From Candidatus Pacebacteria bacterium RIFOXYA1_FULL_38_18 (GTDB lineage: Bacteria; Patescibacteriota; Microgenomatia; UBA1400; PJMF01): DNA of 64,000 nucleotides. Below the pieces are notes generated by a model, which was not told the DNA's origin, did no database searches, and saw nothing but the letters and a program-made list of their open reading frames with translations. The position numbers and the translations under genes were made by a program. Each line of letters starts with the position of its first letter. Position 1 is the stretch's first letter. The stretch is taken from assembly GCA_001787405.1 (NCBI GenBank), contig MFWV01000009.1:26278-90277 (forward strand). The letters run 5' to 3'. Shown here piece by piece: positions 1 to 28,885 of the stretch.

Positions 1-101
1 CAAAAGCTCTATGGCATAAGGAAAAGAAGGATCATAAACAAGCCAAAATCCAGCCAAAGCCGAGAGTAAAAATAGTCCCAACCGCCAGGCAATGATCCAA
101 G

Positions 102-1766
102 TTATGATTTTTTTAAAGTCTGTTTTTTTTCTTGCCATATTAATCCAGCCCAAACCAAAAGAGCTAAACCACTAATCACATTACCCGTAATTCTGGGCCA
201 AGTTTGTTGAGTAAAGCGAGACACAATCTGATACTCACCAGGAACCAACTGATAAGCCAATCTGCCTTGAATCAAATCATCATTAAGATAAGTGACCGGT
301 TTATCATTGGCCGTGGTTTGCCAGCCGGCAAAATTCATAGTGGGTTCTGCAATCAGGGCTTCTTGTGTTACTAACAACTGATAGCGACGACTGGAGCCTG
401 TCCAATGCTCAACCGTAAATTCTGCTTGGCCATTCAATACTCTGGGCTCTGGAGACCAGTCGCCAAATAAAATATAGGTAAAGGTTTTTGGTAAATTTTC
501 ATTCAAAGAACTAGTGCTTTGTGGAAATAAATCATATTCCAGAGTGCTTTTATGAAAAATAGCAATAGCCGACAAACGAAAAACTGCCAAGATTTGAATT
601 AAAAATAATAAACCAAGTAGCCACTTAAAACCTCGTCCCAATTGCCAAGTAAAAGCTACTAGCGGAGCCGTAAAAATCAACCAAAATAAAGTTAAACGCC
701 AGGGAAACTGAATAAAACCGATGAGCGGAATTGTTTTCCAAAATACTTGACTGGCTGGCGTTTGTAAAATCAGCAAAAATCCCCCCACCAAACATAAAAA
801 AAACAATTTATGAGCCAATTGCCGATTGGTTCGACCGTATTTGATCAACCACAATGAAGCAATTAGTAGAGAAAACAAAGGGAGCAAACCAACCGCTAGG
901 CTCAGAGTATCAATCGGTACAGAAAAAGAAAAACCAAATGTCAGTGGCGAAGTAACTAGTTGTGAGGGCTGAACTAAGTGTTCGATCGAGCCTACATTGA
1001 GATTGGTTTCATCCAAAACAACCAAGTTTTTCTCCGCTACTGCCGGCAACCAAAACCATAAAGATAATAATCCAGCCAGCAGTACTGTCTTGAGCCATTG
1101 TAACCAGTTGGTTCTATCAAACTTTAAAATACAGAGGTTATAAAAAAACCATAAAATCATTCCAAACATTACTGAGATGTTATGCGAGAGCAAAAAACCA
1201 AGTACGATGGGGATGCTGATTTTCCAAGAAACAAATTTTTTCTGTTTCCAGCGCTGAGTAAGCCATAATAGCCAGGGGAAAAGCCCCAAAGCCCAAACCT
1301 CACCAATGTTGCCTCGAACATAAATTAGGTTAGCCACAAAAGGAGCAGTAAAATAAGTTCCAGCAACAAACAGAGTACTGAGAAGAGAAAAATTTAGCAA
1401 TTTGAGCCAAGAAATGATACCCACTGCGCCCAAAGAAAGACCAGCTACCATGAGTAGTTTAAAAATCAATTCATAAGAAACACCCAAAACACTCAGGGGT
1501 AGTGACAAAATATTAGCCAGTGGATAATTATAATTAAAAACCGGATAGCCATAATGATTCATCAGATTGGGAGCAAGACGAGGGGGAAATTGTCCTTCGC
1601 GGATCGCCACTTTGTAATTGGCAAAACGAGCTAAATGATTTTCTCCATCATGAGTGTAAGGTACACCAGTTTGAAGATATGGCTGAATTAAGACCAATAA
1701 TGGCAAGAAAATAAGCAACCAACTTGGTTTTTTAAATAAATTCTTTAAGACGCTTAGTTTTTTCAT
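102..1766 (-). CDS. Large polytopic membrane protein, GT-C/YfhO-like (paralog A of three); putative glycosyltransferase
   Basis: N-terminal motif HDGENHLARF...REGQFPPRL...HYGYPVFNYNYPL is shared with the ORFs at 19607 and 24604. It has many TM segments and a C-terminal extracytoplasmic domain (NFAGWQ) followed by a final TM. The start is set at the internal MKKLSV, giving a 4-nt overlap with the upstream gene; the ORF track start is 1814. Confidence 0.7.
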   Translation of the reverse strand: MKKLSVLKNLFKKPSWLLIFLPLLVLIQPYLQTGVPYTHDGENHLARFANYKVAIREGQFPPRLAPNLMNHYGYPVFNYNYPLANILSLPLSVLGVSYELIFKLLMVAGLSLGAVGIISWLKLLNFSLLSTLFVAGTYFTAPFVANLIYVRGNIGEVWALGLFPWLLWLTQRWKQKKFVSWKISIPIVLGFLLSHNISVMFGMILWFFYNLCILKFDRTNWLQWLKTVLLAGLLSLWFWLPAVAEKNLVVLDETNLNVGSIEHLVQPSQLVTSPLTFGFSFSVPIDTLSLAVGLLPLFSLLIASLWLIKYGRTNRQLAHKLFFLCLVGGFLLILQTPASQVFWKTIPLIGFIQFPWRLTLFWLIFTAPLVAFTWQLGRGFKWLLGLLFLIQILAVFRLSAIAIFHKSTLEYDLFPQSTSSLNENLPKTFTYILFGDWSPEPRVLNGQAEFTVEHWTGSSRRYQLLVTQEALIAEPTMNFAGWQTTANDKPVTYLNDDLIQGRLAYQLVPGEYQIVSRFTQQTWPRITGNVISGLALLVWAGLIWQEKKQTLKKS

Positions 1767-2800
1767 AAAATACTTTGATAGACTCGCATAGTTTCCTCGG
1801 CAGTTTTCTCCCAAGTAAACTGTTGCTCCCAGTCAGCAGCTTTCTTTACCCAAGCTCTGCGTTTGGCTTGAGTTAAATTTAAGATCATCTCAATATTTTC
1901 TGCCAGTGCCTCCGCAGTAGCTTCAGCAAAAAGAGTAACCTTGCCTCCCACTTCCAATAAAGAAGAGTTGCCAGTTGCTACTACTGGCGTTTTACAACGC
2001 ATTGCTTCCAAAACAGGCAAACCAAAACCCTCAGATAATGAAGGCTGAACATAAACTGCTGCTGCAGAATAAATAGCTGATAAAGTTTGATAGTCATCGC
2101 TTAGAATATCTGGTTTGAACAATACTCGTTTGGCAACATTACTCAGTGCTATTTGCGCCTCTATGGCCTGCCACTCAGGAATGTCTTGTGGGAAAAAATG
2201 TTTGCCTACGCAAACCAACTTGATGTTTTCTGGTAAATATTTGAGAGCTTTGATTAATTGAGGAATATTTTTATTGTAATTAATGTCTCCTACATACAAG
2301 ATATATTTTTCTGGTAACTTGAGTTTGCGCTTGGCTGTTTTTAGTTTGCTGGCAGGTAGTGGTTGTAAAAATGGATTGGCCGCCAGAGGCACTACCGCTA
2401 TTTTTCCCAAAGGTACACCCAAATGAGTAGCAATATCTTGTTGCGAGGCTTGAGAGTCCGTGATGACTTTAGCTACTGTCTTCAGAGCTAGTTTCTGATG
2501 AGCAAAAGCCAACCAGCCTCGTTTGCCCACAGGATATTCTTTGGGAAAAAGAAGTGGGATAACATCATGAATCGTTACTATGGTTTTACTAAATTTGGCC
2601 AGTGGCAAAGTGGGGAAAAATAAATCAAAGAAAGGATAGTGGACAATGTCTATTTTTTTAGGCCTTTGCACTAAACTAGAGCGATACAATTCTATGCCAG
2701 GTTGCTTTTCCAATGCTTCACTCAAAAAACGAGTGTACATTCCCACTCCGCGAATAGCATGACCGGATGAGAGTGGTTGAACATTGATCAGAACTTTCAT
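1763..2800 (-). CDS. GT4 (GT1-fold) glycosyltransferase
   Basis: EGFGLPVLEAMRCKTPVVATGNSSLLEVGG retaining-GT motif. The start is trimmed to MKVLINV for a 4-nt overlap with the gene at 2797. Confidence 0.85.
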   Translation of the reverse strand: MKVLINVQPLSSGHAIRGVGMYTRFLSEALEKQPGIELYRSSLVQRPKKIDIVHYPFFDLFFPTLPLAKFSKTIVTIHDVIPLLFPKEYPVGKRGWLAFAHQKLALKTVAKVITDSQASQQDIATHLGVPLGKIAVVPLAANPFLQPLPASKLKTAKRKLKLPEKYILYVGDINYNKNIPQLIKALKYLPENIKLVCVGKHFFPQDIPEWQAIEAQIALSNVAKRVLFKPDILSDDYQTLSAIYSAAAVYVQPSLSEGFGLPVLEAMRCKTPVVATGNSSLLEVGGKVTLFAEATAEALAENIEMILNLTQAKRRAWVKKAADWEQQFTWEKTAEETMRVYQSIL

Positions 2801-3588
2801 GATCGACTTTCCTTTGTTTGCGTTTGCTCTAGTTCCCACAATTTAAGATAAGCTACTGGATAATGTAAACCGCTCATCAATGCGAAAACAAAACCTGGGT
2901 AACCATCCAAAAAACCTTTATGACGCAAAAAGAGTGAAAGAAAAATCTGCAATGGTTTGATTAAAAAATAATAAAAACCACCCCACCACGTCAAACGTTT
3001 ATTCTCTTCCCACCAAAGTTTGGCTCTAAAAGAAGTGTAGGTATCGAACTTACGCAAATAATCAGCAAAGGTAGGATTGGCAAAGTGGAGCAAATGGCCT
3101 TTTGCCAAACCCACCGAACCGTCCACTGTCATTTGCTCGTGCACATCAGCTTGGGGTAATTTGGCTTTGCCGGCTAAATATAAACGAATGACTGGATCAG
3201 GATACTGCCCGCCTTTGGTGAGCCAGCGACCCAAAAATAAATTTTTACGGCGAAGCCACCAAGCAGAATTTTTTAATTGACCTTCTTTGCGTTTTTTTTC
3301 GATGAGTTTGATAAATTCAAATAATTTTTCGTCCACTACTTCATCAGCATCCAGTTGCAAGATTAATTCCCCGCGAGCCTTATCCATTGCCAGCTGTTTA
3401 TTGATGTGAAAATTTTGTTTGTTGGTAGTTTTATAAACTCGTGCGTCAAAACTTTTGGCAATTTGGGGGGTGCTATCTTTAGAACTGCCATCAACTACAA
3501 TAATTTCATCGGCTAATTTTTTGATAGATGCCAAACAACGAGCCAAGTTTTTTTCTTCATTATAAGTAGCCAGTACAACTGAAATCAT
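2797..3588 (-). CDS. GT2 glycosyltransferase, DPM1/ArnC-like polyprenol-phosphate sugar synthase
   Basis: MISVVLATYNEEKNL...VVDGSSKDST...LDADE: GT2-A fold with DxD. The start is trimmed to MISVV for a 4-nt overlap. Confidence 0.85.
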   Translation of the reverse strand: MISVVLATYNEEKNLARCLASIKKLADEIIVVDGSSKDSTPQIAKSFDARVYKTTNKQNFHINKQLAMDKARGELILQLDADEVVDEKLFEFIKLIEKKRKEGQLKNSAWWLRRKNLFLGRWLTKGGQYPDPVIRLYLAGKAKLPQADVHEQMTVDGSVGLAKGHLLHFANPTFADYLRKFDTYTSFRAKLWWEENKRLTWWGGFYYFLIKPLQIFLSLFLRHKGFLDGYPGFVFALMSGLHYPVAYLKLWELEQTQTKESRS

Positions 3589-5150
3589 AAATCCTTTTCT
3601 ACGATCCAAACTGATGCTGTTTCTGACCATTGTACCAAGATTGTCTCGGTTTGAGAGCGATCTTGTGGCTCAGCAATAAAATGATAATGAGTGAGCTGTT
3701 CTCCATAACGAAAACCTATTTGATTTGGTTGCTGACGAATGATGGTTTTAAAATAAACATCAGGCGGAAGTTTGAGATACCAAGCCAAGATAATATAGTG
3801 ATAACCAGACGGATCGACAATGGCTATCGGCTGATCGGGGTGTTCTGCTTCCACTGTTTGCATTACTTGGGCAAAACCAGGTTGAAAAGCTTGCGTTTGT
3901 TTTGGATAAATTATGAATAATTGAAAAGCGTGATGAGTGGCTTCCAAAACAAGCACCAGTATTATTGCTCCCCAAATAAATTTATTTTGTTTGAGCCAGC
4001 CAGTCAACCAAACCAAGCCCCAAACCGCAATAATTTGTAATAAAACAAAAAAGAGCAAACTACGAGTGGCATGTGGCGCATCAACAGTGATGATGGCTGG
4101 GAGGAGTGAAGCAAAGAGCAACCAAAGCCAAGCCAGTTCGCGTTTGTGAGTTATTGTCAATTTTTTACAAGCTCGAATCGCTCTACCTGTCATGGCTATG
4201 ATTCCCACTCCGGCAAAACAGAAGCTAGTCCATAGGACGTGTCCCAAATTGGGCAGACTGTGCCATGGGTGACTACCACCTGTGGTTAGCAAAAACTTGA
4301 TAGAAAATGAGCTAAATAGATTTTTGATCGATAAATAAATAAAATAAAGATAACGATTGCCGATTAATGATTGCCAGGGTTGATTGAGGCTGGCTCGGAA
4401 ATTGCTCCATTCATGCCAAACAGTCTCATCACTGAAAATAGTAATGCCACTTTTTTGAGAAGTCAAAGCAAGCAATGACCTCAAACCTACCAAAAAAACT
4501 GCTCCCAAAATCAATTCTATGAGAATTAATTTGTTTTTCTGTTTATTGGCAAATCGCAACCAAACGAAAATCATCAAAACTGGTAAAAGTAATAAAGGCG
4601 TGTTGTAGGTAAAAATAGCCAGCAAAAGTAAGATTATTAAAAGCGGAACGTGCCAGCGTCGGGCTTTATGCTGAAATTCCAGTAAAACCACCAAGGCAGC
4701 TATTAGGTAGGTAAGAGCTAAGTTGGCCTCAAAAGCCAAACGCGAATACCAAATAAATACGGGAGAGACCGCTATCAATAAACTTGCCAGCCAAGCCTGT
4801 TTTTCAATGAACTTAATTTTTTTGGCCAGTAAAAAAACCAATGGTACCAGCACCGTACCAGCCAGCGCCGATGGCAGACGAACGGCCAAGTCAGTCAAGC
4901 CAAAAATCTTTAAAAAGGGAATTAATAATAATGGATAACCAGCCAATTTATAGTCGCCAAATGATTCTAGGGTAAGTGGCCAGCTTTTTTGCCATTCATC
5001 TTGGCCGGTTGTTGATAATAAATAAGCATTGTATGCCAGAGCTGCCTCATCGCGGTTGAGAATAGCGGGTAATTGACCCAATTGCCAAACACGCAAGAAG
5101 AAGGCTAATAAGGTGATTGAGATTAATAACCAATTGATTTTTTTATTCAT
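3585..5150 (-). CDS. GT-C family membrane glycosyltransferase (ArnT/PMT-like, GT39/GT83-type)
   Basis: N-terminal TM then first-loop motif LNRDEAALAYNAYLLSTTGQDEW (DE motif) and more than ten TMs. 4-nt overlap with the next gene. Confidence 0.85.
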   Translation of the reverse strand: MNKKINWLLISITLLAFFLRVWQLGQLPAILNRDEAALAYNAYLLSTTGQDEWQKSWPLTLESFGDYKLAGYPLLLIPFLKIFGLTDLAVRLPSALAGTVLVPLVFLLAKKIKFIEKQAWLASLLIAVSPVFIWYSRLAFEANLALTYLIAALVVLLEFQHKARRWHVPLLIILLLLAIFTYNTPLLLLPVLMIFVWLRFANKQKNKLILIELILGAVFLVGLRSLLALTSQKSGITIFSDETVWHEWSNFRASLNQPWQSLIGNRYLYFIYLSIKNLFSSFSIKFLLTTGGSHPWHSLPNLGHVLWTSFCFAGVGIIAMTGRAIRACKKLTITHKRELAWLWLLFASLLPAIITVDAPHATRSLLFFVLLQIIAVWGLVWLTGWLKQNKFIWGAIILVLVLEATHHAFQLFIIYPKQTQAFQPGFAQVMQTVEAEHPDQPIAIVDPSGYHYIILAWYLKLPPDVYFKTIIRQQPNQIGFRYGEQLTHYHFIAEPQDRSQTETILVQWSETASVWIVEKDL

Positions 5151-6835: not shown

Positions 6836-6859
6836 GTATTTATGGTAACAGAGTTTAAC

Positions 6860-8614: not shown

Positions 8615-8661
8615 AGATTATACTGATTAATCAGCATTTGGAAAAGCCGAATCTCAAGAAC

Positions 8662-10362: not shown

Positions 10363-10368
10363 TTTATT

Positions 10369-11982: not shown

Positions 11983-12010
11983 ATAAATATTAATTATCGC
12001 GTTCTAAATC

Positions 12011-13998: not shown

Positions 13999-14002
13999 TC
14001 AA

Positions 14003-15738: not shown

Positions 15739-15765
15739 AGTTTGTCATTCATTATACTATTTATA

Positions 15766-17505: not shown

Positions 17506-17514
17506 ATTTTTAAT

Positions 17515-18441: not shown

Positions 18442-18486
18442 TAAAGTAAAAATAGATGATAATCAATCGTCGATTGATCTTTAACC

Positions 18487-18515
18487 TTGTGACAGTTTTT
18501 CTAAACTGTTACAAT
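18487..18515 (+). promoter_or_regulatory. Sigma70-like promoter TTGTGA-N17-TACAAT overlapping an imperfect inverted repeat (TTGTGACAG-N10-CTGTTACAA)
   Basis: Read directly from the divergent intergenic region between the GT2 gene (-) and the gene at 18529 (+). The spacing is 17 nt and the ATG lies 14 nt downstream of the -10. Confidence 0.35.
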
Positions 18516-18528
18516 TTTTTTAAGTTAA

Positions 18529-19629: not shown

Positions 19630-21358
19630 ACTTTCCAACTTATTAAAACTTAAAACTACCAAAAAGTGGTTGATTTTAATCATTAGTCTCGGCATCATTT
19701 TGGGTGGAATATTTTTAGCTATTCGTAAGATGAGAATTTCTCAAGGAATGTGGTATTCCTTTGATGATGTCCATGTTATCAGAACCGTGGCTATGGCTCA
19801 TGAACTTGAGCGCGGTCAATTTCCAGTCAGAATACTCAGTGATTTTGGTAATGGTGGCGGTTATCTTTTTTTTAATTTTTATTCTCCGCTGGTTTATTAC
19901 TTGACTGCTGGATTGGTTTTTCTTGGTAATCATCCGCTCAATGCCGTTAAGCTTGCTTTTCAGTTGTGTTATTTACTGGGAGCCTTGGGCATGTGGACTT
20001 GGTTGCGCCGACTCTTTCCTCAAAAACCCTGGGTCGCTGTTATCGGTAGCTTGTTGCTGATTGGTAGCGGTTATTTCAACTATGATGCTTATGTGAGAGG
20101 TTCATTGGGCGAATTGAGTGGTTTTGCCCTTACTCCCTGGCTTTTTTGGCTTTATGAAAATCTGAAAACTAGCCCAAGAAATAAACTGAGTATTGGTTTG
20201 CTGGCGCTAGCTATCAGTACTTTCATGTATGTTCATATGATTACAGCCTTTATTGTTTTGCCTTTTCTGGGTTTGCGTTGGATTTGGGATCTTTATTTTC
20301 ATCAACTCAAACCAACCAAACGCTGGAATTTGGCTTGGGCAGGCTTACTATCAATAGGTCTTTCAGCTTCCTATCTTTTGCCAGTAATAGTCGAAAAATC
20401 ATTGGTTTGGTACAGTCAAATAGATTATGTCACCCAAGGCTTTCAAAGTGGCTTTGTTTCTTTTGTTGAACTGGTCGGTTGGCAAAAAAATGCCGATCCC
20501 ACCATTCTGCCCATGACTGTTGGGTCCTGGTTGAGCCTGAGTGCTGGGATAGCGATCATCTTCAGTTGGCAACAATTAAAAAGATTGACTGGCAAACAGA
20601 TGATGGTGCAATCCTCACTCTGGTGGTTTGCTGTCAGCGGTTTATTGTTGGCATTATTTATTCAAAGTAAATGGAGTAGAGTGATTTGGGAAAATAGTAG
20701 TCTTTTGCAAATGACTCAATTTCCCTCTCGTTATCTAATGATTATCAGCCTTTTGGCTGTCTTGATTGTTAGCCTGGGCTTGGCTAATTGGAAAAAAGAT
20801 CTAATTGCTATTTTATTGGGAATTACTCTTCTTTCTTTGACTTGGTGGCAAAATCAGCCGCTCATGACCCCGTCCGGATATTACTTTACTGATGAGTTTA
20901 GAGCAGAAGATCTGTGTAGCTCCTCAACTTGGCAGTACGAATATCTACCCAAATGGACACAGGAGTGTTTGCCAAAAGGTCACTCTTTTCCCATAGCGAC
21001 CAGCTCAGAAGCCTTGGAAATCTTGGACGTTCAAGTGGCCGATAACCTCACTTCACTGGAGATAAAAACCAATGGAAAACCTGGCGAATTAATCATTACT
21101 CGTTATTATTTTCCTGGTTGGCAAATCAAGAGTGATCAGCAAATTCTTGAGTCTTATCCTGTTGGTAAATATGGTTTGTTGGGTGCACGAATATCCACCA
21201 ATCAAACTCAACTTAGTGTTCAGTTTACCGACACTCCCATTAGAACTTGGGCCAATAATATTTCAATCAGTAGTTTAATTATAGGATTATGGTTGATAAC
21301 GACCGATAGTATTACTTTGATTAGAAAAAAATTAAAGCTGAAATTCAAAAAACCTTAA
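19607..21358 (+). CDS. Large polytopic membrane protein, GT-C/YfhO-like (paralog B)
   Basis: MWYSFDDVHVIRTVAMAHELERGQFPVRIL...GNGGGYLFFNFYSPLVYY, and a C-terminal domain with YFPGWQ before the final TM. The start is chosen at the internal MYKKII; the ORF track start is 19589. Confidence 0.7.
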   Translation: MYKKIITKLSNLLKLKTTKKWLILIISLGIILGGIFLAIRKMRISQGMWYSFDDVHVIRTVAMAHELERGQFPVRILSDFGNGGGYLFFNFYSPLVYYLTAGLVFLGNHPLNAVKLAFQLCYLLGALGMWTWLRRLFPQKPWVAVIGSLLLIGSGYFNYDAYVRGSLGELSGFALTPWLFWLYENLKTSPRNKLSIGLLALAISTFMYVHMITAFIVLPFLGLRWIWDLYFHQLKPTKRWNLAWAGLLSIGLSASYLLPVIVEKSLVWYSQIDYVTQGFQSGFVSFVELVGWQKNADPTILPMTVGSWLSLSAGIAIIFSWQQLKRLTGKQMMVQSSLWWFAVSGLLLALFIQSKWSRVIWENSSLLQMTQFPSRYLMIISLLAVLIVSLGLANWKKDLIAILLGITLLSLTWWQNQPLMTPSGYYFTDEFRAEDLCSSSTWQYEYLPKWTQECLPKGHSFPIATSSEALEILDVQVADNLTSLEIKTNGKPGELIITRYYFPGWQIKSDQQILESYPVGKYGLLGARISTNQTQLSVQFTDTPIRTWANNISISSLIIGLWLITTDSITLIRKKLKLKFKKP

Positions 21359-21411
21359 ATTATAGGATGTTGATAATTTAAAATAGAGTAGGGGAGTATT
21401 TTTTTTAAATC

Positions 21412-23088
21412 ATGAGGAAAAATATAAGCTTAATTTTATTGACTGTTATTGTGACGTTGGGTTTTATTTTCCGATTCATTAATTTGACTGACACCCCTGC
21501 TGGTTTTAATTGGGATGAGGCTTCTGTCGGTTACAATGCTTATTCTCTGTTATTGACTGGCAAAGACGAGTTCGGTCGCAGTTGGCCCATATTTATTGAA
21601 TCATTTGGTGATTTCAAAACTGGACTCTATAGTATGATGCTTGTGCCTATCATTAATTGTCTGGGTCTTAATGTTTTCTCAGTTAGAGTGCTCAATGTTT
21701 TTATTGGTACCAGTTTGATTATTGCCGGTTATTTTTTGGGGAAACAATACTTTAAAAGAACAACAGAGGCCCTAATACTAGCTGGTTTATTGGCTTTCTC
21801 ACCTTTGGCGATTCATTTATCACGCTTTACGCTGGAATGGTACGCTGCCCTACCTCTTTTTGTAACAGGAGTCGGGTTATTAATTCATGAAAAAAAATTC
21901 AGTTGGCGTCTGATTCTAGCTACCGTTTTATTGGGTTTTAGTTTGTACTGGTATCACAGTCTGCGATTAATCTTACCGTTCTTTCTCTTCAGTTACTTTC
22001 TAATTTATCGTTCGCAACTACTCAAAGAGAAAAAAATCTTTATTTTGAGTTTGGTTGTAGGTTTACTCAGCATCACTCCCCTCTTGATTGCTTTCAAACA
22101 AAATAATATTTTGACCAGACCTCAGGCGGTAGCCATTTTTAATGATAGTGAACAGCAAAGATTGCAAACAGAAAGCTTATATCGTTTTACGACCGCCAGT
22201 GTTCCTTTGCGCAGAATCTTGGCCAATAAAGGAGTTTATTATTTGCAAGAAATTGCCTATCGATATCTAGGTCATTTTTCTCCTGAGTTTTTATTTTTTG
22301 GCACTGATGCCACTCCCAGAATCAGCATTCATCAAGTAGGCAAACTACAATTAGTAGCGCTCCCCTTTCTAATTATTGGTTTTGCCGAAGTTTTGAAAAA
22401 ACGAAGTAAAGAGAATCTGCTGATTTTAAGCTGGGTTTTTCTAGCTCCTCTGCCCGCCAGCCTAACCACTGATGCACCACATGGCTTGCGCAGTTTATTA
22501 CTTTTGCCTGTTTTATTATTGATTGTCGTGATTGGCTTGAGCAGAGTTCATCTTTATTTTAAAAAGCATTGGTCGTCAACTTCAGTCACTTTGATGGAAG
22601 CTTTTATCTTTCTTGTTTTTATGGCAAATTTTCTTTCACAAATTTCGCATTATTTTCTTTTTTATGCGGAGGAAACTACCTCTTATTGGCAAGCTGATCA
22701 ACAAGAAATGGTTCATAAATTAAATCTTTATAAAGATCAATATCAACAAGTTTTGGTTAGCACTGATGATGGCCAACCTTATATTTTTATTGCCTTTTTT
22801 ACCCCAATTAACCCTTTAGAGTTTCAACAAGCCATCAAAAATCAACAACAAATTTTTAATTCTAGGGTTAATCAACTGGGTAACCTCATTTTTAAAACCA
22901 TTCATTCTGAAGATTATTGTCTGCCAAATACTCTAATCATTACCAAAAACTTTCCAGTAGTAAAAAATCTAAAACCAATCGCCACTGTTTATCTGCCAAA
23001 TCGTTGGCATGAACCTAAAGAGAGTTTTTATTTCTTTGAAACTGACAATCCCCTCATTCGGAGTCAATTATGTCCGGTTGAAAAATAG
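21412..23088 (+). CDS. GT-C family membrane glycosyltransferase (ArnT/PMT-like)
   Basis: RFINLTDTPAGFNWDEASVGYNAYSLLLTGKDEFGRSW; polytopic. Confidence 0.85.
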   Translation: MRKNISLILLTVIVTLGFIFRFINLTDTPAGFNWDEASVGYNAYSLLLTGKDEFGRSWPIFIESFGDFKTGLYSMMLVPIINCLGLNVFSVRVLNVFIGTSLIIAGYFLGKQYFKRTTEALILAGLLAFSPLAIHLSRFTLEWYAALPLFVTGVGLLIHEKKFSWRLILATVLLGFSLYWYHSLRLILPFFLFSYFLIYRSQLLKEKKIFILSLVVGLLSITPLLIAFKQNNILTRPQAVAIFNDSEQQRLQTESLYRFTTASVPLRRILANKGVYYLQEIAYRYLGHFSPEFLFFGTDATPRISIHQVGKLQLVALPFLIIGFAEVLKKRSKENLLILSWVFLAPLPASLTTDAPHGLRSLLLLPVLLLIVVIGLSRVHLYFKKHWSSTSVTLMEAFIFLVFMANFLSQISHYFLFYAEETTSYWQADQQEMVHKLNLYKDQYQQVLVSTDDGQPYIFIAFFTPINPLEFQQAIKNQQQIFNSRVNQLGNLIFKTIHSEDYCLPNTLIITKNFPVVKNLKPIATVYLPNRWHEPKESFYFFETDNPLIRSQLCPVEK

Positions 23089-23107
23089 TTTTCCTTTTGA
23101 AACTGAT

Positions 23108-24607
23108 TTATTTTCTCAATAAACTGTGCACTTCCTTGTTGAGCTGGCGCCAACCAAATAAAGCAATACTCAGTAAATAAATCAGGCCACTTGAAATTAT
23201 GCCAATAACTAACATTCGCAAACCCTGAGTCCAGATTTGCATACCTAGTAAACCTAAAGTAGCCATGATTACTGATCCTATTAAAGCCAATTTTACTTGA
23301 GGAAAAACCTCGATTGGGACATATTTTTTGACCATCCTAATTGACAAAACCGAGGTAAAAGAAATGATTAGTGCCGACCAAGCCACTCCGTTAAATCCAA
23401 CTTTCCAAAGCAAAAGCGGAGTGATAATCCAAGTTAGCATTGTCCATAAACTCATTAATTTTAAAGTCTTATTGATCTGTCCAATAGCATTGAGTGTATT
23501 GACCAAGGGAGTAGAAAGAGCTGCCCAACCGATGCTTAGTGCAAATAAAATAAAGCTGACCACGGCAGGCTCCCATTGTTTATATCTCTCTACTACTTGA
23601 ATTAACGGCCAAATAAAAACACTCATTGCTGTCAAAATAGGAAAAATGGCCAAAGAAATGAAAAACAGTGATTTTTCGATCGCTTTTTTGAGTAAGTCAG
23701 TACGTGATTGTAAACGCGAATAAGTGGGAAAAGTGATGGCTAATACGTTCTGGACAGTGAGGTTATATGGGTATTGCGACCAGCTTTTTGCCCATTGAAT
23801 ATAACCAAATTGATCTAATGGTAAAAATATGCCCAGTCCCAAAAAGAAAAGTTGATCTTTGATGCGAGCTAGAAAATCATTGAGCTGAAACTTTACGCCA
23901 TAACTCAATAATGATTTGAGTACTTTAGTATTCCAACGCAAGCCAATTTCCCGCCACGGTTCGATCGACCACATAATTATTACTCCCACGATGGACCTGG
24001 CCACAATGGCATAGGCATAAGAAATAACTCCAAAGCCATGCCAAGCTAGATAAACCAGCAAACCATAAAAAACTATTTGCTCAAAAATTTGGGGAATAAC
24101 CAATTTATTAAATAATAATTTACGCTCCAACTTGATGGAAGAAATTGTTTTCAAGGTAGCCAGAGGAAATGAGATAGCCAAGCTGACTAGCAACCAAGCT
24201 CCAGCCCCACCCACTTTGGCTTGAACCCAGCCCGTTAGCAACAACAAAATAATGATTCCTACAATCAACCAACTCAATAGCCACTGAAGAGTAAACACCA
24301 CTCTATATTCACTTTTGTTTGGCTCATCCTTTTTTTGCACCAATGCCGCAGCCAAACCAATATCGGAAAAGAAAATTAACAACCCAATAATCTGAATCAC
24401 GAAACCGTATATGCCAAAATCTTCTGGCGAAAAAAAGGCACTCAAAATCAAAGCCGAAACCAAACCAATGATCTGTAAAACCGCTGTTCTCAAAAAATAA
24501 GATAAAGCGCCCATTACAGAGCGATGTTTAATATTGGCAATTTCTTCTGCGTCAGTTAATAACTCTTCAACTTCGTCTGTGGTATCAACTGGAGTGTGTT
24601 GAATCAT
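23108..24607 (-). CDS. Polysaccharide/oligosaccharide flippase (Wzx-like, MOP superfamily)
   Basis: About 12-14 TM segments with the typical N-terminal HRSVMGALSYFLRTAVLQIIGLVSALILSAFFSPEDFGIYG pattern of polysaccharide biosynthesis proteins. Confidence 0.75.
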   Translation of the reverse strand: MIQHTPVDTTDEVEELLTDAEEIANIKHRSVMGALSYFLRTAVLQIIGLVSALILSAFFSPEDFGIYGFVIQIIGLLIFFSDIGLAAALVQKKDEPNKSEYRVVFTLQWLLSWLIVGIIILLLLTGWVQAKVGGAGAWLLVSLAISFPLATLKTISSIKLERKLLFNKLVIPQIFEQIVFYGLLVYLAWHGFGVISYAYAIVARSIVGVIIMWSIEPWREIGLRWNTKVLKSLLSYGVKFQLNDFLARIKDQLFFLGLGIFLPLDQFGYIQWAKSWSQYPYNLTVQNVLAITFPTYSRLQSRTDLLKKAIEKSLFFISLAIFPILTAMSVFIWPLIQVVERYKQWEPAVVSFILFALSIGWAALSTPLVNTLNAIGQINKTLKLMSLWTMLTWIITPLLLWKVGFNGVAWSALIISFTSVLSIRMVKKYVPIEVFPQVKLALIGSVIMATLGLLGMQIWTQGLRMLVIGIISSGLIYLLSIALFGWRQLNKEVHSLLRK

Positions 24608-26379
24608 GATTTATTTTTTTTCTTTAAATTTAATGAATTTAATTGTTTTTTGGGAATCAATAAAAAGACCAATATCAACCAAGAAAATAAACTAAGTAAG
24701 TCAGCATATTTTCTAACGGGAGTAGACAGAAAACGTAAAGCAACTAAATGCTGGCCGGCTGGCACTGTTACAGAGATATTGCCATTTTCACCAATCTGGC
24801 GATTCCAGCGTTGGTTATCAATTTCTAGCCCCCAGCCGGGATAGTCGGCTACGGCCAGCTCAAGAGTGGCCTCACTGGTAAAATTAGTCTTGATCAATTT
24901 TTCATGTACTCGTTCCACCAATATCTCGAAACTATCTGCTGGTAATTCTTGACTATTGATAATTAACTCTTCCGGAATCAAGGTCGGCGGGATGGGCATG
25001 CCCACTACTGCATAATCAGGCAGAATATTACTCAGGTTTTTTCTCATCAAAAGTGGATCGGTATAATAATAGTCTTCATTGCGCTCCAAAAATTTTTCTG
25101 GTCTAAAATAAGTCACTGAACCAATGACCATGATGATCACTAGTAATAATGAACCATAAACTCTTGTCAATTTATTTTTGATAAACCAAGTCAGACTGCC
25201 AATCAAAAGAGCGATTAATAGAATAATAATGCTCAACCATCTCCAGGGGAACTGAGCATATTTTAATAAAAATATTTGATCCCACAACCACTGTGATTTC
25301 AGTAAAGACATATAAAAACCAATCAAAAGTAAAAAGCCGAAAAGTAATACCAAGCCCAAAACTTTTTTTGAAGGAAAAAGCGGTTGGCGACCTCTCAGCC
25401 AATTCCAAAATCTTCCTACACTGATCAAACCCAACACGCCCAAACTAAGCCACTGTCCCCAACCCAGGAAAAAAGAAATATCATCATCTACTCCCCAAGC
25501 ACTGCCACCATAATCCCAATTGGGTTGAAAAAATTGCCTGATATATAAAAAATGTAAACGATAATCAAAATAATAAGTAAAGATCGTATCTTCTATTTGA
25601 GTGAGGTTTTTTTCAAAAAACGCCGGTATTAAATAAAAAGCCGATAAACCCAAAGCCAACAATACACTTAGCGCTAGACTACCCAAAATTCTAACAAAGT
25701 TTCGCCAACGAAATTGATTGCGATAAAAAAACTCTGGTGCTTTGCGCCAAAATAAAATCACAAAAAACCCAAACACAAAAAGACCTAGGATAGGCATAAA
25801 AAGTAGAGTAATAATGTTGTGTGATAAAAATAATCCCACTAAGGCCAAACTCAGCATCAACCAGCCATTTTTCTCACGATGAAAAACCTTGATAACACCC
25901 AAGAAAATCCAAGGTAAAAATAGAATCGCCCAAGCTTCATTGAGCGCCCCTCTCACAAATAAATTGACTGCTCGATAAGGAGCCAGAGTTAGGGCAGCCG
26001 CAGTCAACAAACCACCACTTTTACCAAATAATTTTTTTCCCAACAGATAGCCACCCATGATGGTGCCCGCATTAACCACAAGAAAAAGTGCTTTGATGGC
26101 CAATACTACATCTGCACTCAACCAATAAATGATGGCTCCCAAATAAAAAGGCAGTGGACCATAAAACTCAAATAAAGGCATGCCGTAGCCAAATCCAAAA
26201 TTCTGCGTCCAACGAACGGGAAAATGACCGTCACCCAAGGCTCTCGTCATCTCAGCGATTCGACCAGCATGAGTATAGTCATGAATGCGAAAAAATTTGG
26301 GACTAAATAACGACCAAGAGCTGGCCAAAAAAATTAAAATCAAAAAATAAAGTGGCAACCAGGTTTTTATTTTTTTCAC
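24604..26379 (-). CDS. Large polytopic membrane protein, GT-C/YfhO-like (paralog C)
   Basis: FFRIHDYTHAGRIAEMTRALGDGHFPVRWTQNFGFGYGMPLFEFYGPLPFY, and a C-terminal YPGWG domain plus terminal TM. Confidence 0.7.
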   Translation of the reverse strand: MKKIKTWLPLYFLILIFLASSWSLFSPKFFRIHDYTHAGRIAEMTRALGDGHFPVRWTQNFGFGYGMPLFEFYGPLPFYLGAIIYWLSADVVLAIKALFLVVNAGTIMGGYLLGKKLFGKSGGLLTAAALTLAPYRAVNLFVRGALNEAWAILFLPWIFLGVIKVFHREKNGWLMLSLALVGLFLSHNIITLLFMPILGLFVFGFFVILFWRKAPEFFYRNQFRWRNFVRILGSLALSVLLALGLSAFYLIPAFFEKNLTQIEDTIFTYYFDYRLHFLYIRQFFQPNWDYGGSAWGVDDDISFFLGWGQWLSLGVLGLISVGRFWNWLRGRQPLFPSKKVLGLVLLFGFLLLIGFYMSLLKSQWLWDQIFLLKYAQFPWRWLSIIILLIALLIGSLTWFIKNKLTRVYGSLLLVIIMVIGSVTYFRPEKFLERNEDYYYTDPLLMRKNLSNILPDYAVVGMPIPPTLIPEELIINSQELPADSFEILVERVHEKLIKTNFTSEATLELAVADYPGWGLEIDNQRWNRQIGENGNISVTVPAGQHLVALRFLSTPVRKYADLLSLFSWLILVFLLIPKKQLNSLNLKKKNKS

Positions 26380-27666: not shown

Positions 27667-27861
27667 ATGTTTACCAAACTTCCCCAGCCAATTGAACCGC
27701 GGTTTGTCATTAGATTATTGGTAGCCATTATCGTAATACTGGCTTTTTTGGCTGGTTACTATCACTCAGCCCTTGGTGTCGAACAAGAAAAACTAAAACA
27801 ACTAGAAATTCAAATAGAGTCACTACAAATTAAAGAAATTGAAATTGAGGAAAAATTATGA
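27667..27861 (+). CDS. Small single-TM protein with coiled-coil tail (hypothetical; FtsB/DivIC-like architecture)
   Basis: 64 aa with a TM (VIRLLVAIIVILAFLAGYY) then EQEKLKQLEIQIESLQIKEIEIEE. Its stop overlaps the rmlB start, suggesting translational coupling. Confidence 0.4.
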   Translation: MFTKLPQPIEPRFVIRLLVAIIVILAFLAGYYHSALGVEQEKLKQLEIQIESLQIKEIEIEEKL

Positions 27862-28871: not shown

Positions 28872-28885
28872 GCCTAAGGATTTTT

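What the first reader, a model, noticed from the sequence alone, without database searches (positions are those of the whole stretch)
102..26379. Triad of giant membrane proteins with a conserved HD..H..R / FPxRW / GYxxPxFxFYxPL N-terminal signature
Three ORFs of about 580 aa (102-1766, 19607-21358, 24604-26379) share an unusual N-terminal motif (HDGENHLARF / DDVHVIRTVAMAHELERGQFPVR / HDYTHAGRIAEMTRALGDGHFPVRW, then GYPVFNYNYPL / GGGYLFFNFYSPL / GYGMPLFEFYGPLPFY). They also share a C-terminal extracytoplasmic domain with a conserved aromatic-PGW motif and a final TM. I could not place this signature confidently in a named family; YfhO-like or another GT-C family is a guess. They are co-located with PMT-like genes, which suggests they are additional lipid-carrier-dependent transferases or polymer-processing enzymes.
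Basis: seen in the sequence. Interest (0 to 1): 0.55.

Follow-up and report, generated by a model that had tools for sequence, protein, structure and literature searches.

The report
Three paralogous GT-C membrane glycosyltransferases
The three ~560-590-residue membrane proteins are real, distantly related paralogues with the fold of lipid-carrier-dependent (GT-C) glycosyltransferases, and they belong to a very large, catalogued but uncharacterised family inside a candidate-phyla-radiation cell-wall polysaccharide gene cluster, so they are a plausible but fairly ordinary find.

Summary
Three ORFs (102-1766 −, 19607-21358 +, 24604-26379 −) are paralogues (26-28% identity, E 1e-12 to 3e-20). Their N-terminal motif, QFPWR motif and C-terminal GW motif are conserved in 260 homologues.

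The window comes from Candidatus Pacebacteria bacterium RIFOXYB1_FULL_39_46 (Patescibacteria).

AlphaFold models of C and A are very confident (pLDDT 96 and 95). In the PDB they match only GT-C glycosyltransferases: STT3/AglB/PglB, AftA/AftD, ArnT, DPY19, ALG9/12 and PMT.

B passes Pfam PF10131 (PTPS_related, GT-C clan). A and C fall below every Pfam cut-off but join the same superfamily, which holds 36,346 clusters at 50% identity.

The "HD..H..R" motif is the first extracytoplasmic loop and carries the near-invariant Asp expected of a GT-C catalytic loop. All conserved polar residues face outward.

Each paralogue has its own conserved neighbourhood:
- C is coupled to a Wzx flippase, beside an LCP ligase and rhamnose genes (Wzx follows in 56 of 72 loci).
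- A follows GT2 and GT4 genes and overlaps, or elsewhere is fused to, a PIG-V-like GT-C.
- B follows a short PMT_2-like protein.

Most likely they are outer-face glycosyltransferases using polyprenyl-phosphate-sugar donors to build or decorate a wall glycopolymer. A polymerase role for C is not excluded.

This is a new member of a known kind, of modest interest.

The parts
102..1766 (-). Paralogue A (famA), 554 aa, a GT-C-fold membrane protein. Its start ATG overlaps the stop codon of the upstream GT4 gene in an ATGA arrangement.
   Evidence: ORF. It has no Pfam or NCBIfam hit. AF2 model pLDDT 95.1, pTM 0.93. Foldseek PDB top hits are STT3, AftD, PglB, AglB, ArnT and AftA. 472 homologues were found.
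19607..21358 (+). Paralogue B (famB), 583 aa, a GT-C-fold membrane protein and the only one of the three that passes Pfam PF10131.
   Evidence: PF10131 E 1.9e-12, 46.9 bits against a gathering score of 26.4; residues 89-421 match profile positions 1-312 of 621. P0001 is 100% identical, from Candidatus Pacebacteria bacterium RIFOXYB1_FULL_39_46.
24604..26379 (-). Paralogue C (famC), 591 aa, a GT-C-fold membrane protein. Its stop codon overlaps the start of the downstream Wzx gene by 4 nt.
   Evidence: AF2 model pLDDT 96.3, pTM 0.94, with 12 TM helices and a C-terminal beta-sandwich. Foldseek finds GT-C enzymes only. 1049 homologues were found.
26152..26283 (-). N-terminal signature of C (residues 33-76: HDYTHAGRIAEMTRALGDGHFPVRW...GYGMPLFEFYGPL). 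This is the first extracytoplasmic loop (EL1) directly after TM1 and contains the putative catalytic Asp34.
   Evidence: Conservation: D34 98%, R40 96%, R56 99%, P75 100%. In the model it lies after helix 2-25 and includes helix 37-49. Most of it lies upstream of where the PF10131 model starts to match (residue 70 in C).
1518..1652 (-). N-terminal signature of A (residues 39-83: HDGENHLARF...GQFPPRL...GYPVFNYNYPL).
   Evidence: Alignments.
19760..19891 (+). N-terminal signature of B (residues 52-95: FDDVHVIRTVAMAHELERGQFPVR...GGGYLFFNFYSPL).
   Evidence: Alignments. In this subfamily the first His is replaced (Phe in B; His in only 26% of famB).
24658..24930 (-). C-terminal extracytoplasmic beta-sandwich of C (residues ~484-550, carrying YPGW) followed by the final TM helix (554-574).
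   Evidence: Strands and helix from the AF2 secondary structure. G515 and W516 are 94% and 98% conserved. The C-terminal end of the Pfam YfhO profile (767-824 of 835) matches residues 497-551, below cut-off. Partial Foldseek matches to beta-sandwich side domains of glycoside hydrolases (1nof, 2rdy, 8k7x).
23108..24607 (-). Wzx/MOP-family flippase, translationally coupled downstream of C.
   Evidence: Polysacc_synt_3 E 4e-44. Best NCBIfam matches are 'MOP flippase family' and 'O-glycosylation flippase', both below their cut-offs. It is the next gene downstream on the same strand in 56 of 72 related loci with room.
26462..27649 (+). LytR-CpsA-Psr (LCP) family protein, divergent from C. LCP proteins are glycopolymer-to-peptidoglycan ligases.
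   Evidence: PF03816 E 4.6e-30. It is divergent and immediately upstream of famC in 36 of 73 loci with room.
27858..30557 (+). RmlB-like dehydratase (27858-28871), SurE (28886-29671) and RmlD-like reductase (29649-30557): a dTDP-rhamnose-type sugar supply.
   Evidence: Rml homologues occur in 50 of 80 related loci.
1..138 (-). Truncated 5' end of the gene downstream of A. It is a PIG-V/Mannosyl_trans2-like ~400-aa GT-C partner and overlaps the 3' end of A by 37 nt.
   Evidence: Its translation MARKKTDFKKIITWIIAWRLGLFLLSALAGFWLVYDPSFPYAIELL resembles, by eye, the N-termini of the ~400-aa proteins after famA in L003 and L004; no score was computed for this 46-residue fragment. One of those proteins carries a weak PF04188 hit. 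Those proteins align at 47-74% identity with the C-terminal halves of 15 famA homologues of ~917-951 aa.
18529..19629 (+). Short (366 aa) PMT_2-like membrane protein whose 3' end overlaps the start of B.
   Evidence: PMT_2 E 2e-4, below cut-off. The same gene-then-famB pair occurs in L005.
1763..3630 (-). GT4 (1763-2839) and GT2 (2797-3630) genes directly upstream of A in the same operon.
   Evidence: The order GT2 > GT4 > famA is seen again in L004.
34508..35683 (+). GT2 fused to a GtrA/DPMS transmembrane domain: a candidate polyprenyl-phosphate-sugar synthase that could supply lipid-linked monosaccharide donors.
   Evidence: Glycos_transf_2 plus GtrA_DPMS_TM. Best NCBIfam similarities are PgfS, ArnC, AglJ and PpgS, all below cut-off.
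3585..23088 (.). Six PMT_2-like GT-C paralogues interleaved with the triad: 3585-5150 (−), 5147-6835 (−), 8662-10362 (−), 10369-11982 (−), 15766-17505 (−) and 21412-23088 (+).
   Evidence: Alignment A3 shows 25-29% identity and a conserved (D/E)E...GD.K...SR..FE pattern. Three pass the PMT_2 gathering score. hhalign against the triad profile gives probability 94.6%.

Best explanation
A, B and C are three anciently diverged paralogues of one GT-C_A-fold integral-membrane glycosyltransferase superfamily. That superfamily centres on Pfam PF10131 'PTPS_related' and borders YfhO, PMT_2 and AftD-type GT-C families.

**Architecture (shown).** Each protein has 12 transmembrane helices with both termini in the cytoplasm. 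A long first outer loop follows TM1. A beta-sandwich domain on the outer face is tethered by a last TM helix.

**Active site (inferred).** Its near-invariant Asp (D34 in C) is the counterpart of the catalytic or acceptor-activating Asp that solved GT-C enzymes carry just after TM1. The other invariant residues (R40, R56, K96, R143, E148, H187, E256, R380) all lie in outer loops or at the outer ends of helices. They would form the pocket that binds the phosphate of a polyprenyl-phosphate-linked sugar and the sugar itself.

**Proposed mechanism (inferred).** Cytoplasmic GT2 and GT4 enzymes and a polyprenyl-phosphate-sugar synthase make lipid-linked glycans and sugars. A Wzx/MOP flippase moves them outward. 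The three GT-C enzymes then transfer sugar from the lipid carrier onto a rhamnose-containing wall glycopolymer, each with its own donor or acceptor specificity. The beta-sandwich probably holds the acceptor glycan. The LCP enzyme finally attaches the polymer to peptidoglycan.

Shown here: paralogy, fold, topology, residue conservation and conserved gene neighbourhoods. Inferred: catalysis, donor, acceptor and order of action.
For: **Paralogy.**

**Fold.** AF2 models have pLDDT 96.3 and 95.1. For C, ranks 1-27 of the Foldseek PDB list are all GT-C enzymes: STT3 7oci_F at 8e-5, AglB 3wak, AftA 8if8, AftD 6w98, ArnT 5f15, DPY19 7zlh, ALG12/ALG9 and Pmt4. For A, ranks 1-24 are likewise all GT-C.

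**Family.** B reaches 46.9 bits on PF10131 against a gathering score of 26.4. Of 67 relatives, 41 hit PF10131, 18 YfhO, 12 PMT_2 and 9 GT-C_AftD. PF10131 belongs to GT-C clan CL0111 (PMC7801869). hhalign against the window's PMT_2-like paralogues gives probability 94.6%, E 7e-8, placing the R143...E148 segment opposite their 'SRxxFE' segment, with the Glu one position out of register.

**Conservation and topology.** D34, R56, R143, E148, H187 and R380 are 98-100% conserved in 260 homologues. In short loops there are 15 K/R in 49 inside-loop residues against 3 in 25 outside-loop residues, and all conserved polar residues are on the outer side.

**Literature.** The catalytic Asp of solved GT-C structures lies after TM1. 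C-terminal beta-rich CBMs bind the acceptor glycan in GT136, EmbC and AftD (PMC11127046). Multi-component systems of GT-A + flippase (GtrA or Wzx type) + GT-C decorate wall polymers, including the streptococcal rhamnan system with its Wzx-type flippase GacK and GT-C GacL (PMC8035078).

**Context.** The arrangement RmlD< RmlB< LCP< famC> Wzx> GT2> GT2> PMT2-like> recurs, with Wzx directly downstream in 56 of 72 loci. In L003 the order is PF00953 transferase > UbiA prenyltransferase > famA.

**A Firmicutes relative.** A full-length homologue in Monoglobus (hhalign probability 99.9, E 1e-36, same GHD..H..R..GQFPVR..GYGY motif) starts at the last base of the stop codon of a 324-aa GT2. That GT2 resembles AglJ / dolichyl-phosphate hexose transferases and ends in two hydrophobic stretches that look like TM helices. 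This is the classical pairing of a lipid-phosphate-sugar synthase with a GT-C.

**Copy number.** Tandem arrays of up to four famC copies occur, and single proteins carry 2-6 matched stretches. This fits diversified step-wise transferases.
Against: - No enzymatic, genetic or glycan-structure data exist for any member, and I found no paper that characterises PF10131.
- A and C do not reach any Pfam gathering score. NCBIfam has no model for any of the three.
- A sequence profile finds no solved structure.
- In the window none of the three is adjacent to a clear polyprenyl-phosphate-sugar synthase. The nearest candidate is 8 kb away, at 34508-35683.
- The best structural matches are OST subunits, the one GT-C_A family that uses lipid-PP-oligosaccharide donors. 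Together with the tight coupling of C to Wzx, this leaves the donor type open.
Confidence: 0.7

Rival explanations
1. C, and possibly the whole family, is not a monosaccharide-adding transferase. Instead it would be the Wzy-like polymerase or en-bloc transferase of a Wzx-dependent pathway. It would take the lipid-PP-linked oligosaccharide flipped by the adjacent Wzx and polymerise it, or transfer it onto the growing wall polymer, which LCP then ligates to peptidoglycan.
For: - famC is coupled to Wzx in 56 of 72 loci and lies next to LCP and rml genes, the slot that wzy occupies in many capsule and O-antigen loci.
- No Wzy-type Pfam family (PF04932, EpsG, O-ag_pol_Wzy) appeared among the window ORFs scanned, nor in the precomputed Pfam lists of L001, L002 and L005.
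- Seven cytoplasmic GT2/GT4 genes lie in the same operons, enough to build a repeat unit.
- The best Foldseek hits are OSTs, which use lipid-PP-oligosaccharide donors.
- One clan of known Wzy polymerases (GT-C3: GT122-124) also has its long loop near the N-terminus, with two conserved Arg, one Asp and one His (PMC10920833).
Against: - Wzy proteins are often invisible to Pfam, so their absence is weak evidence.
- Wzx-type flippases also serve lipid-P-monosaccharide systems, such as GacK/GacL (PMC8035078).
- The Monoglobus homologue is coupled to a lipid-phosphate-hexose synthase-like GT2, not to a flippase of repeat units.
- Three paralogues per genome, tandem arrays of four and fusions with up to six matched stretches are unusual for a polymerase.
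- None of the 67 relatives hit EpsG.
- The OST motif WWDYG is not conserved. 'WDYG' in C is at a non-equivalent position, and its Asp is Gly in 87% of famC.
Confidence: 0.18
2. The proteins are protein glycosyltransferases, comparable to PMT or TMTC O-mannosyltransferases or to oligosaccharyltransferases. They would modify surface proteins such as S-layer proteins or pilins rather than a wall polysaccharide.
For: - Structural neighbours include OST, PMT and DPY19 enzymes, which are all protein glycosyltransferases.
- The best NCBIfam similarity of the adjacent flippase includes 'O-glycosylation flippase', below cut-off.
- The cluster is rich in PMT_2-type genes.
- S-layer glycan clusters also carry rml genes (my own knowledge).
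Against: - The conserved partner is an LCP ligase, which attaches glycopolymers to peptidoglycan.
- The PMT 'DE' motif and the OST WWDYG motif are absent.
- No MIR or TPR acceptor-binding domains are present.
- The C-terminal domain is a beta-sandwich resembling carbohydrate-binding side domains.
Confidence: 0.08
3. The proteins are not transferases at all. They could be a pterin-metabolism-related membrane protein (as the Pfam name '6-pyruvoyl-tetrahydropterin synthase related' suggests), a transporter, or a non-catalytic scaffold.
For: Only the inherited Pfam/NCBI product name supports this. A few low-probability Foldseek matches to MFS/POT transporters appear far down the list, with probabilities of 0.04-0.12.
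Against: - There is no PTPS catalytic domain in these proteins, and the Pfam match is to the membrane part only.
- All significant structural matches are GT-C glycosyltransferases.
- The invariant Asp/Arg/Glu/His constellation on the outer face argues for catalysis.
- Every conserved neighbour is a glycan-biosynthesis gene.
Confidence: 0.02

Closest known systems
Pfam PF10131 PTPS_related (GT-C clan CL0111; function unknown)
   Same: B passes the family's gathering score, and 41 of 67 relatives match at E<=0.01. The multi-span core from the 'FNFYxPL' segment to about TM10 aligns with profile positions 1-312.
   Different: A has no hit and C scores 17.4 bits, below the cut-off of 26.4. Only the first half of the 621-position profile is matched. 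TM1 and most of the conserved EL1 signature (the Asp and the FPxR motif) lie upstream of where the model starts to match. The family name is a misnomer for these proteins.
YfhO (PF09586), the GT-C enzyme of the CsbB/GtcA/YfhO teichoic-acid glycosylation systems of Bacillus, Staphylococcus and Listeria
   Same: Both are GT-C membrane proteins thought to work on the outer face with C55-P-sugar donors (PMC8035078). The end of the YfhO profile (767-824 of 835) matches the C-terminal beta-sandwich of C, and 18 of 67 relatives give YfhO hits, the best at 1.9e-15. A Monoglobus homologue is paired with a CsbB/AglJ-like GT2.
   Different: None of the three reaches the YfhO gathering score, and A and B have no hit at all. 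The YfhO Pfam profile is 835 positions long, against 554-591 aa for these proteins. In the window they are not paired with a CsbB-type GT2 or a GtrA/GtcA flippase but with Wzx, LCP, GT4 and other GT-C genes.
GacL/GacK (with GacI/J) side-chain glycosylation of the streptococcal rhamnose polysaccharide
   Same: Both systems combine a GT-C enzyme with a Wzx-type flippase, in a cluster with rhamnose-biosynthesis genes for a wall-anchored rhamnose-containing polymer (PMC8035078).
   Different: GacL is listed as a PMT_2-type GT-C (PMC8035078), whereas famC scores below the PMT_2 cut-off. No ABC exporter for a main chain was seen among the window ORFs scanned. Whether Wzx here flips a monosaccharide or an oligosaccharide carrier is unknown.
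GT136 three-component pentofuranose system (Citrobacter youngae ORF12/14/15; Kelly et al. 2024) and mycobacterial arabinan GT-Cs (AftA/AftD/Emb)
   Same: Both have a GT-C core with a small helical outer domain after TM1, a catalytic Asp next to TM1 and a C-terminal beta-rich carbohydrate-binding domain. Both have a MOP/MATE-superfamily flippase. A UbiA-type prenyl-phosphate sugar synthase lies next to a famA homologue in L003. AftA and AftD are among the top structural matches.
   Different: CDD places ORF12 in the EpsG family, and none of the 67 relatives hit EpsG. tblastn of C found no phage relatives. The triad has an extra terminal TM helix after the beta-sandwich. No UbiA gene was found in this window.
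The window's own PMT_2-like (GT39/GT83-type) paralogues
   Same: Detectable homology over TM2-TM7 (hhalign probability 94.6%, E 7e-8), including the R...E segment of the TM3-TM4 outer loop. They share the operons and a similar length.
   Different: The EL1 chemistry differs: (D/E)E...GD.K in the PMT_2-like set against HD..H..R...FPxR in the triad. The PMT_2-like set has no QFPWR motif. Their C-terminal regions did not align in hhalign, which matched only columns 78-244.

Membership tests
GT-C fold glycosyltransferase superfamily (GT-C_A type) | Polytopic membrane core of about 8-14 TM helices | tested here: met
   The AF2 secondary structure of C shows 12 TM helices, with hydropathy 0.75-2.36 per helix and N-in/C-in topology by the positive-inside rule. 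A has the same layout.
GT-C fold glycosyltransferase superfamily (GT-C_A type) | Structural similarity to solved GT-C enzymes | tested here: met
   In Foldseek PDB, the first 27 matches for C and the first 24 for A are all GT-C enzymes (GT66, the arabinofuranosyltransferases AftA/AftD, GT83, GT39, DPY19, ALG9/12), with probability >=0.95 and TM-scores 0.3-0.45. There were no WaaL or SEDS (GT-C_B) matches.
GT-C fold glycosyltransferase superfamily (GT-C_A type) | Conserved acidic residue (DxD or a modified form) in the first extracytoplasmic loop just after TM1 | tested here: met
   D34 (C numbering) lies 9 residues after TM1 and is 98% conserved in 260 homologues: 100% in famA and famB, 97% in famC. 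It is a single Asp, not a DxD or DE pair.
GT-C fold glycosyltransferase superfamily (GT-C_A type) | Conserved residues clustered on the extracytoplasmic face | tested here: met
   D34, R40, R56, K96, R143, E148, H187, E256 and R380 map to outer loops or the outer ends of TM helices. Spatial clustering in 3D could not be measured because no coordinates were available.
GT-C fold glycosyltransferase superfamily (GT-C_A type) | Uses a polyprenyl-phosphate- or -diphosphate-linked sugar donor | not testable with these tools
   Only context is available: a GtrA-fused GT2 at 34508-35683, an AglJ-like GT2 coupled to the Monoglobus homologue, and UbiA next to famA in L003.
Pfam PF10131 PTPS_related | Whole-protein score at or above the gathering score of 26.4 bits | tested here: inconclusive
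   B scores 46.9 bits (met). C scores 17.4 bits (not met). A has no hit (not met). 41 of 67 relatives match at E<=0.01.
YfhO (PF09586) | Whole-protein score at or above the gathering score of 28.5 bits | tested here: not met
   C scores 20.4 bits, and its best stretch covers only the C-terminal 55 residues. A and B have no hit.
YfhO (PF09586) | Works with a CsbB-type GT2 and a GtrA/GtcA flippase to glycosylate teichoic acid | not testable with these tools
   In the window the partners are Wzx, LCP, GT4 and other GT-C genes. A CsbB/AglJ-like pairing is seen only for the Monoglobus homologue.
PMT_2 / PMT (GT39, GT83-like) | Score at or above the PMT_2 gathering score (26.1 bits) and an acidic pair (DE-type) motif in EL1 | tested here: not met
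   C scores 21.5 bits; A and B have no hit. EL1 reads HD or FD, whereas the window's PMT_2-like paralogues have an acidic pair (DE; EE in one) with only the Glu invariant. Remote homology exists only over TM2-7.
Oligosaccharyltransferase STT3/PglB/AglB (GT66) | WWDYG motif in a C-terminal outer domain | tested here: not met
   No WWDxG occurs in A or B. 'WDYG' at residue 288 of C lies in the TM7-TM8 loop, and its Asp is Gly in 87% of famC. Only 1 of 67 relatives gives a weak STT3 hit.
Wzy-type polysaccharide polymerases (clan GT-C3: GT122-124; EpsG-like) | Sequence membership in a Wzy family, and use of lipid-PP-oligosaccharide to polymerise repeat units | tested here: inconclusive
   None of the 67 relatives hit EpsG or other Wzy Pfam families. 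Direct comparison with GT122-124 sequences was not possible. The shared features are generic: a long N-terminal loop and conserved Asp, His and two Arg (PMC10920833).
GT136 (C. youngae ORF12) | Sequence similarity to ORF12 and pairing with a UbiA-type PPPRS and a MATE flippase | not tested
   No ORF12 sequence was available; BK026208.1 is not in the phage collection, and tblastn of C against phages found nothing. ORF12 is EpsG-like by CDD. The UbiA-famA adjacency occurs only in L003.

The most novel reading that the evidence does not exclude
famC would be the missing outer-face polymerase or en-bloc transferase of a Wzx-dependent, LCP-anchored rhamnose-containing wall polysaccharide pathway in Microgenomates-type CPR bacteria. 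That would make it a GT-C_A-fold enzyme doing the job of Wzy, in a lineage where no canonical Wzy was seen. famA (with its fused or overlapping PIG-V-like partner) and famB would then elaborate the polymer. This would define a new functional class of bacterial polysaccharide polymerase and a CPR-specific wall-assembly route.
Probability: 0.18. Interest if true: 0.6.

Novelty: new member of a known kind. Interest (0 to 1): 0.3.

Why it matters
CPR/Patescibacteria have tiny genomes, yet this organism devotes about 41 kb to glycan assembly, with at least a dozen GT-C-type genes. The surface glycopolymers of these bacteria are unknown and probably matter for their episymbiotic life.

The triad belongs to a very large family (36,346 50%-identity clusters) that has no characterised member and carries a misleading product name ('6-pyruvoyl-tetrahydropterin synthase-related').

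Three results turn a hypothetical-protein family into one with testable predictions:
- the conserved N-terminal signature is identified as the GT-C catalytic loop;
- a list of invariant outer-face residues is available for mutagenesis;
- each paralogue has a stable gene partnership (C with Wzx and LCP, A with a PIG-V-like GT-C, B with a short PMT_2-like protein).

A homologue in the cultivable Firmicute Monoglobus gives an experimental entry point. The result does not overturn anything: it is what a specialist would expect of such a cluster.

Tried and rejected
- **NCBIfam.** No model matches A, B or C.
- **Sequence profile against all PDB chains.** Only noise came back (casein kinase, E~2).
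- **Genome scan with one protein.** The single-protein scan of genome contigs found nothing. The alignment-based scan worked.
- **BLAST-type searches with C.** tblastn against phages found nothing. blastn against E. coli genomes found nothing. Plasmids gave one hit, in Monoglobus, which proved useful.
- **GT136 comparison.** I tried to fetch a GT136-type system (BK026208.1) for direct comparison, but the record is not in the collection. GT136 membership is therefore untested.
- **OST reading.** 'NWDYGG' in C looked like WWDYG, but it sits at a non-equivalent position and its Asp is not conserved. Rejected.
- **Pterin-synthase reading of the Pfam name.** Only the membrane part of the profile matches. 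Rejected.
- **The ~670-740-aa multi-TM proteins after Wzx in related loci.** I tested whether they are divergent members. hhalign probability is 0.3% against the triad profile and 0.2% against the PMT_2-like profile. Not members by this test.
- **Canonical Wzy, initiating phosphoglycosyltransferase or UbiA in the window.** None appeared among the ORFs scanned.
- **Literature.** Searches for PF10131/PTPS_related function and for GT-C in Patescibacteria found no characterisation.

Full report

The three ORFs exist where stated: A 102-1766 (−, 554 aa), B 19607-21358 (+, 583 aa) and C 24604-26379 (−, 591 aa). The collections hold proteins identical to them. Those matching B and C are named as coming from 'Candidatus Pacebacteria bacterium RIFOXYB1_FULL_39_46', a member of the Patescibacteria/CPR (NCBI lineage Minisyncoccota for sister records).

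The three are homologous beyond chance:
- A-B: 28% identity, E 9e-15.
- A-C: 27% identity, E 1e-12.
- B-C: 26% identity over the full length, E 3e-20.

A profile built from the family finds exactly these three strong members among all window ORFs.

In an alignment of 260 homologues the motif residues are strongly conserved (C numbering): D34 98%, R40 96%, R56 99%, G66 98%, F70 94% and P75 100%.

The two His of 'HD..H' are subfamily-specific. They are high in famA and famC but only 26% and 46% in famB.
- the proteins are not 'giant';
- the His residues are not family-wide;
- the signature is not rare.

**2. What the proteins are**

*Pfam and NCBIfam.* B passes PF10131 'PTPS_related' (46.9 bits against a gathering score of 26.4). 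C has only sub-threshold hits to YfhO (its C-terminal 55 residues), PMT_2 and PF10131. A has nothing. NCBIfam has no model for any of them. Among 67 relatives, 41 hit PF10131, 18 YfhO, 12 PMT_2 and 9 GT-C_AftD. PF10131 is a member of the GT-C clan CL0111 and is described as 'function unknown' in the one paper that mentions it (PMC7801869). No paper characterising it was found.

*Structure.* A sequence profile finds no solved structure. AlphaFold2 models are nevertheless very confident: C has pLDDT 96.3 and pTM 0.94; A has pLDDT 95.1 and pTM 0.93. Foldseek against the PDB returns only GT-C glycosyltransferases at the top of both lists (ranks 1-27 for C, 1-24 for A). These are STT3/AglB/PglB, AftA, AftD, ArnT, DPY19, ALG9/ALG12 and Pmt. 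They are the GT-C_A type rather than the WaaL/SEDS type (classification as tabulated in PMC10920833).

*Relation to the neighbours.* A profile-profile comparison links the triad to the six PMT_2-like paralogues of the same window (probability 94.6%, E 7e-8). It places the R143...E148 segment opposite their 'SRxxFE' segment, with the Glu one position out of register.

**3. Anatomy**

The model of C has 12 TM helices. The positive-inside rule gives 15 K/R in 49 inner short-loop residues against 3 in 25 outer ones, which puts both termini in the cytoplasm.

D34 sits nine residues after TM1, followed by an interfacial helix (37-49) and the FPVRW/GYG/FxFYxPL stretch leading into TM2. PF10131 begins to match only at residue 70 in C and 89 in B. 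TM1 and most of this loop, including the Asp, are therefore upstream of the matched region.

All other invariant polar residues lie on the outer side:
- K96 at the outer end of TM2;
- R143/E148 in the TM3-TM4 turn;
- H187 between TM5 and TM6;
- E256 in the TM7-TM8 loop;
- QFPWR at the start of TM10.

After TM11 comes an outer beta-sandwich (strands 484-550, carrying the PGW motif) and a final TM helix. This part matches the end of the YfhO profile. It also gives partial Foldseek matches to beta-sandwich side domains of glycoside hydrolases.

**4. Context**

The first 41 kb of the window is one glycan-assembly region. It contains:
- five GT2 and two GT4 genes in the first 18.5 kb;
- six PMT_2-like paralogues, a short PMT_2-like protein and two further PMT_2 proteins;
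- a GT2-GtrA fusion (a polyprenyl-phosphate-sugar synthase candidate) and one more GT2 at 37246-38013;
- a Wzx flippase and an LCP ligase;
- RmlB/RmlD-like genes, a UDP-sugar dehydrogenase and GDP-mannose dehydratase.

Related loci were collected from at least 566 species-level genomes, nearly all titled as Patescibacteria/Microgenomates-type lineages; some titles are evidently mislabelled. Each paralogue has its own conserved neighbourhood.

*famC.* It sits in RmlD< RmlB< LCP< famC> Wzx> GT2> GT2> PMT2-like>. Wzx is the next gene on the same strand in 56 of 72 loci with room. LCP is divergent upstream in 36 of 73.

*famA.* It follows GT2>GT4 and is followed by a ~400-aa PIG-V/Mannosyl_trans2-like protein. 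That partner is fused to famA in 15 of the 120 listed homologues (~917-951 aa). Its 5' end is visible at window 1-138 (−), overlapping A. In one lineage famA follows a PF00953 transferase and a UbiA prenyltransferase.

*famB.* It follows the short PMT_2-like gene.

*Size and reach of the superfamily.* It is huge: 36,346 50%-identity clusters at E<=1e-3 and 11,376 at E<=1e-30. It includes proteins with two to six matched stretches and tandem arrays of up to four famC genes. It also reaches Firmicutes. A 711-aa Monoglobus protein is a full-length homologue (hhalign probability 99.9, E 1e-36) with the same GHD..H..R..GQFPVR..GYGY loop. Its start overlaps the stop codon of a 324-aa AglJ/dolichyl-phosphate-hexose-transferase-like GT2 that ends in two hydrophobic stretches resembling TM helices.

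**5. Mechanism**

The best-supported reading is that A, B and C are outer-face GT-C glycosyltransferases that take sugar from a polyprenyl-phosphate carrier. D34 would be the catalytic or acceptor-activating residue. The Arg/Lys set would bind the carrier phosphate, and the beta-sandwich would hold the acceptor glycan. They would act on a rhamnose-containing polymer that LCP anchors to peptidoglycan.

This is analogous to the multi-component GT-A/flippase/GT-C systems of Gram-positive bacteria, including the GacK (Wzx-type)/GacL pair (PMC8035078). It also resembles GT136 and mycobacterial arabinan assembly (PMC11127046).

Fold, topology, conservation and synteny are shown. Catalysis, donor and acceptor are inferred.

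The main rival is that famC is a Wzy-like polymerase or en-bloc transferase for the Wzx-flipped lipid-PP-oligosaccharide.
- For the rival: the tight Wzx coupling, the absence of a recognisable Wzy, OSTs as the best structural matches, and the existence of a Wzy clan with an N-terminal catalytic loop (PMC10920833).
- Against it: the Monoglobus pairing with a lipid-P-sugar synthase, the multiplicity of paralogues and fusions, and the lack of EpsG/Wzy or WWDYG signatures.

Protein glycosylation and a non-enzymatic role are less likely.

**6. Comparison, novelty and verdict**

The triad is filed as members of the GT-C superfamily. B is a Pfam PF10131 member. A and C are unmodelled outliers of the same superfamily. 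None is a YfhO, PMT_2, OST or (as far as could be tested) GT136 or Wzy member.

This is a new member of a known kind: a catalogued but uncharacterised GT-C family with a misleading name.

Interest is modest (0.3). The useful outputs are:
- the identification of the signature as the catalytic loop;
- the list of invariant residues;
- the three stable gene partnerships;
- a cultivable-organism homologue for experiments.

Noticed in passing
window 1-138 (−): This is the truncated start of a gene that overlaps the 3' end of A by 37 nt. Its N-terminus resembles, by eye, the ~400-aa PIG-V/Mannosyl_trans2-like GT-C that follows famA in other genomes. In 15 of the 120 listed famA homologues the two are fused into ~917-951-aa proteins.
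   Followed up: partly
window 6860-8614 (−): The arginyl-tRNA synthetase gene (argS, identified from its translation only; no family scan was run) sits in the middle of the long minus-strand operon of GT2, GT4 and PMT_2-like genes. This is an odd housekeeping insertion in a glycan cluster.
   Followed up: no
window 3585-40852: GT-C-type genes are unusually dense here, with at least 12 in 41 kb. They are the triad, six PMT_2-like paralogues (25-29% identity to each other), a short 366-aa PMT_2-like protein (18529-19629) and two more PMT_2 proteins (35684-37249 and 39302-40852).
   Followed up: partly
window 38016-39305 (+): This 429-aa multi-TM protein has no Pfam hit even at E<=1. It lies between a GT2 and a PMT_2 gene, and relatives occur in a few related loci (6 BLAST hits). 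It could be another divergent GT-C or a Wzy/ligase-type protein.
   Followed up: partly
L002:13197-15221 (−) and 17 other related loci; absent from the window: A ~670-740-aa multi-TM protein family lies convergent with Wzx in 18 of 80 related loci. It has no Pfam hit and no significant hhalign match to the triad or the PMT_2-like profiles. It does contain an 'NAHDGVLHLSFIEALIRQFPP' stretch reminiscent of the HD..H...QFP signature.
   Followed up: partly
P0284 (3329 aa), P0285 (1670 aa), P0282 (1116 aa); L078, L082: Some proteins carry 2-6 matched stretches of this GT-C module in one polypeptide. Tandem arrays of up to four famC genes occur, upstream of a single Wzx in L078 and with no Wzx seen within the stored locus in L082 (Daviesbacteria and Woesebacteria records).
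   Followed up: no
window 28886-29671 (+): A SurE-family nucleotidase sits between the RmlB-like and RmlD-like genes, where related loci have RmlC (dTDP-sugar isomerase). No RmlA or RmlC was seen among the window ORFs scanned.
   Followed up: no
L086 (Monoglobus pectinilyticus NZ_OY725740.1, 5500-7635): A Firmicutes full-length homologue carries the same N-terminal signature. It lies in a cluster GT39 - DUF6056 - acyltransferase - GT39 - AglJ-like GT2 - homologue - 690-aa hypothetical, and both it and the next gene are annotated 'hypothetical protein'.
   Followed up: yes
L010, L013, L016 and others; L057: Many genome records with this CPR-type synteny are titled 'uncultured Pseudomonadales/Gammaproteobacteria', and single records are titled 'Limisphaerales', 'Methylococcaceae' or 'candidate division TM6'. 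These are probably taxonomic mislabels or binning errors rather than true occurrences.
   Followed up: no
window 40922-50778: Beyond the glycan region there is a histidine-kinase fragment and response regulator (40922-42244), tRNA-Gln (42310-42383), a PD-(D/E)XK/Cas4-like nuclease (43551-44420), an MFS transporter, RecJ (47475-49106) and a CCA-adding-type nucleotidyltransferase with an HD domain (49072-50778).
   Followed up: no
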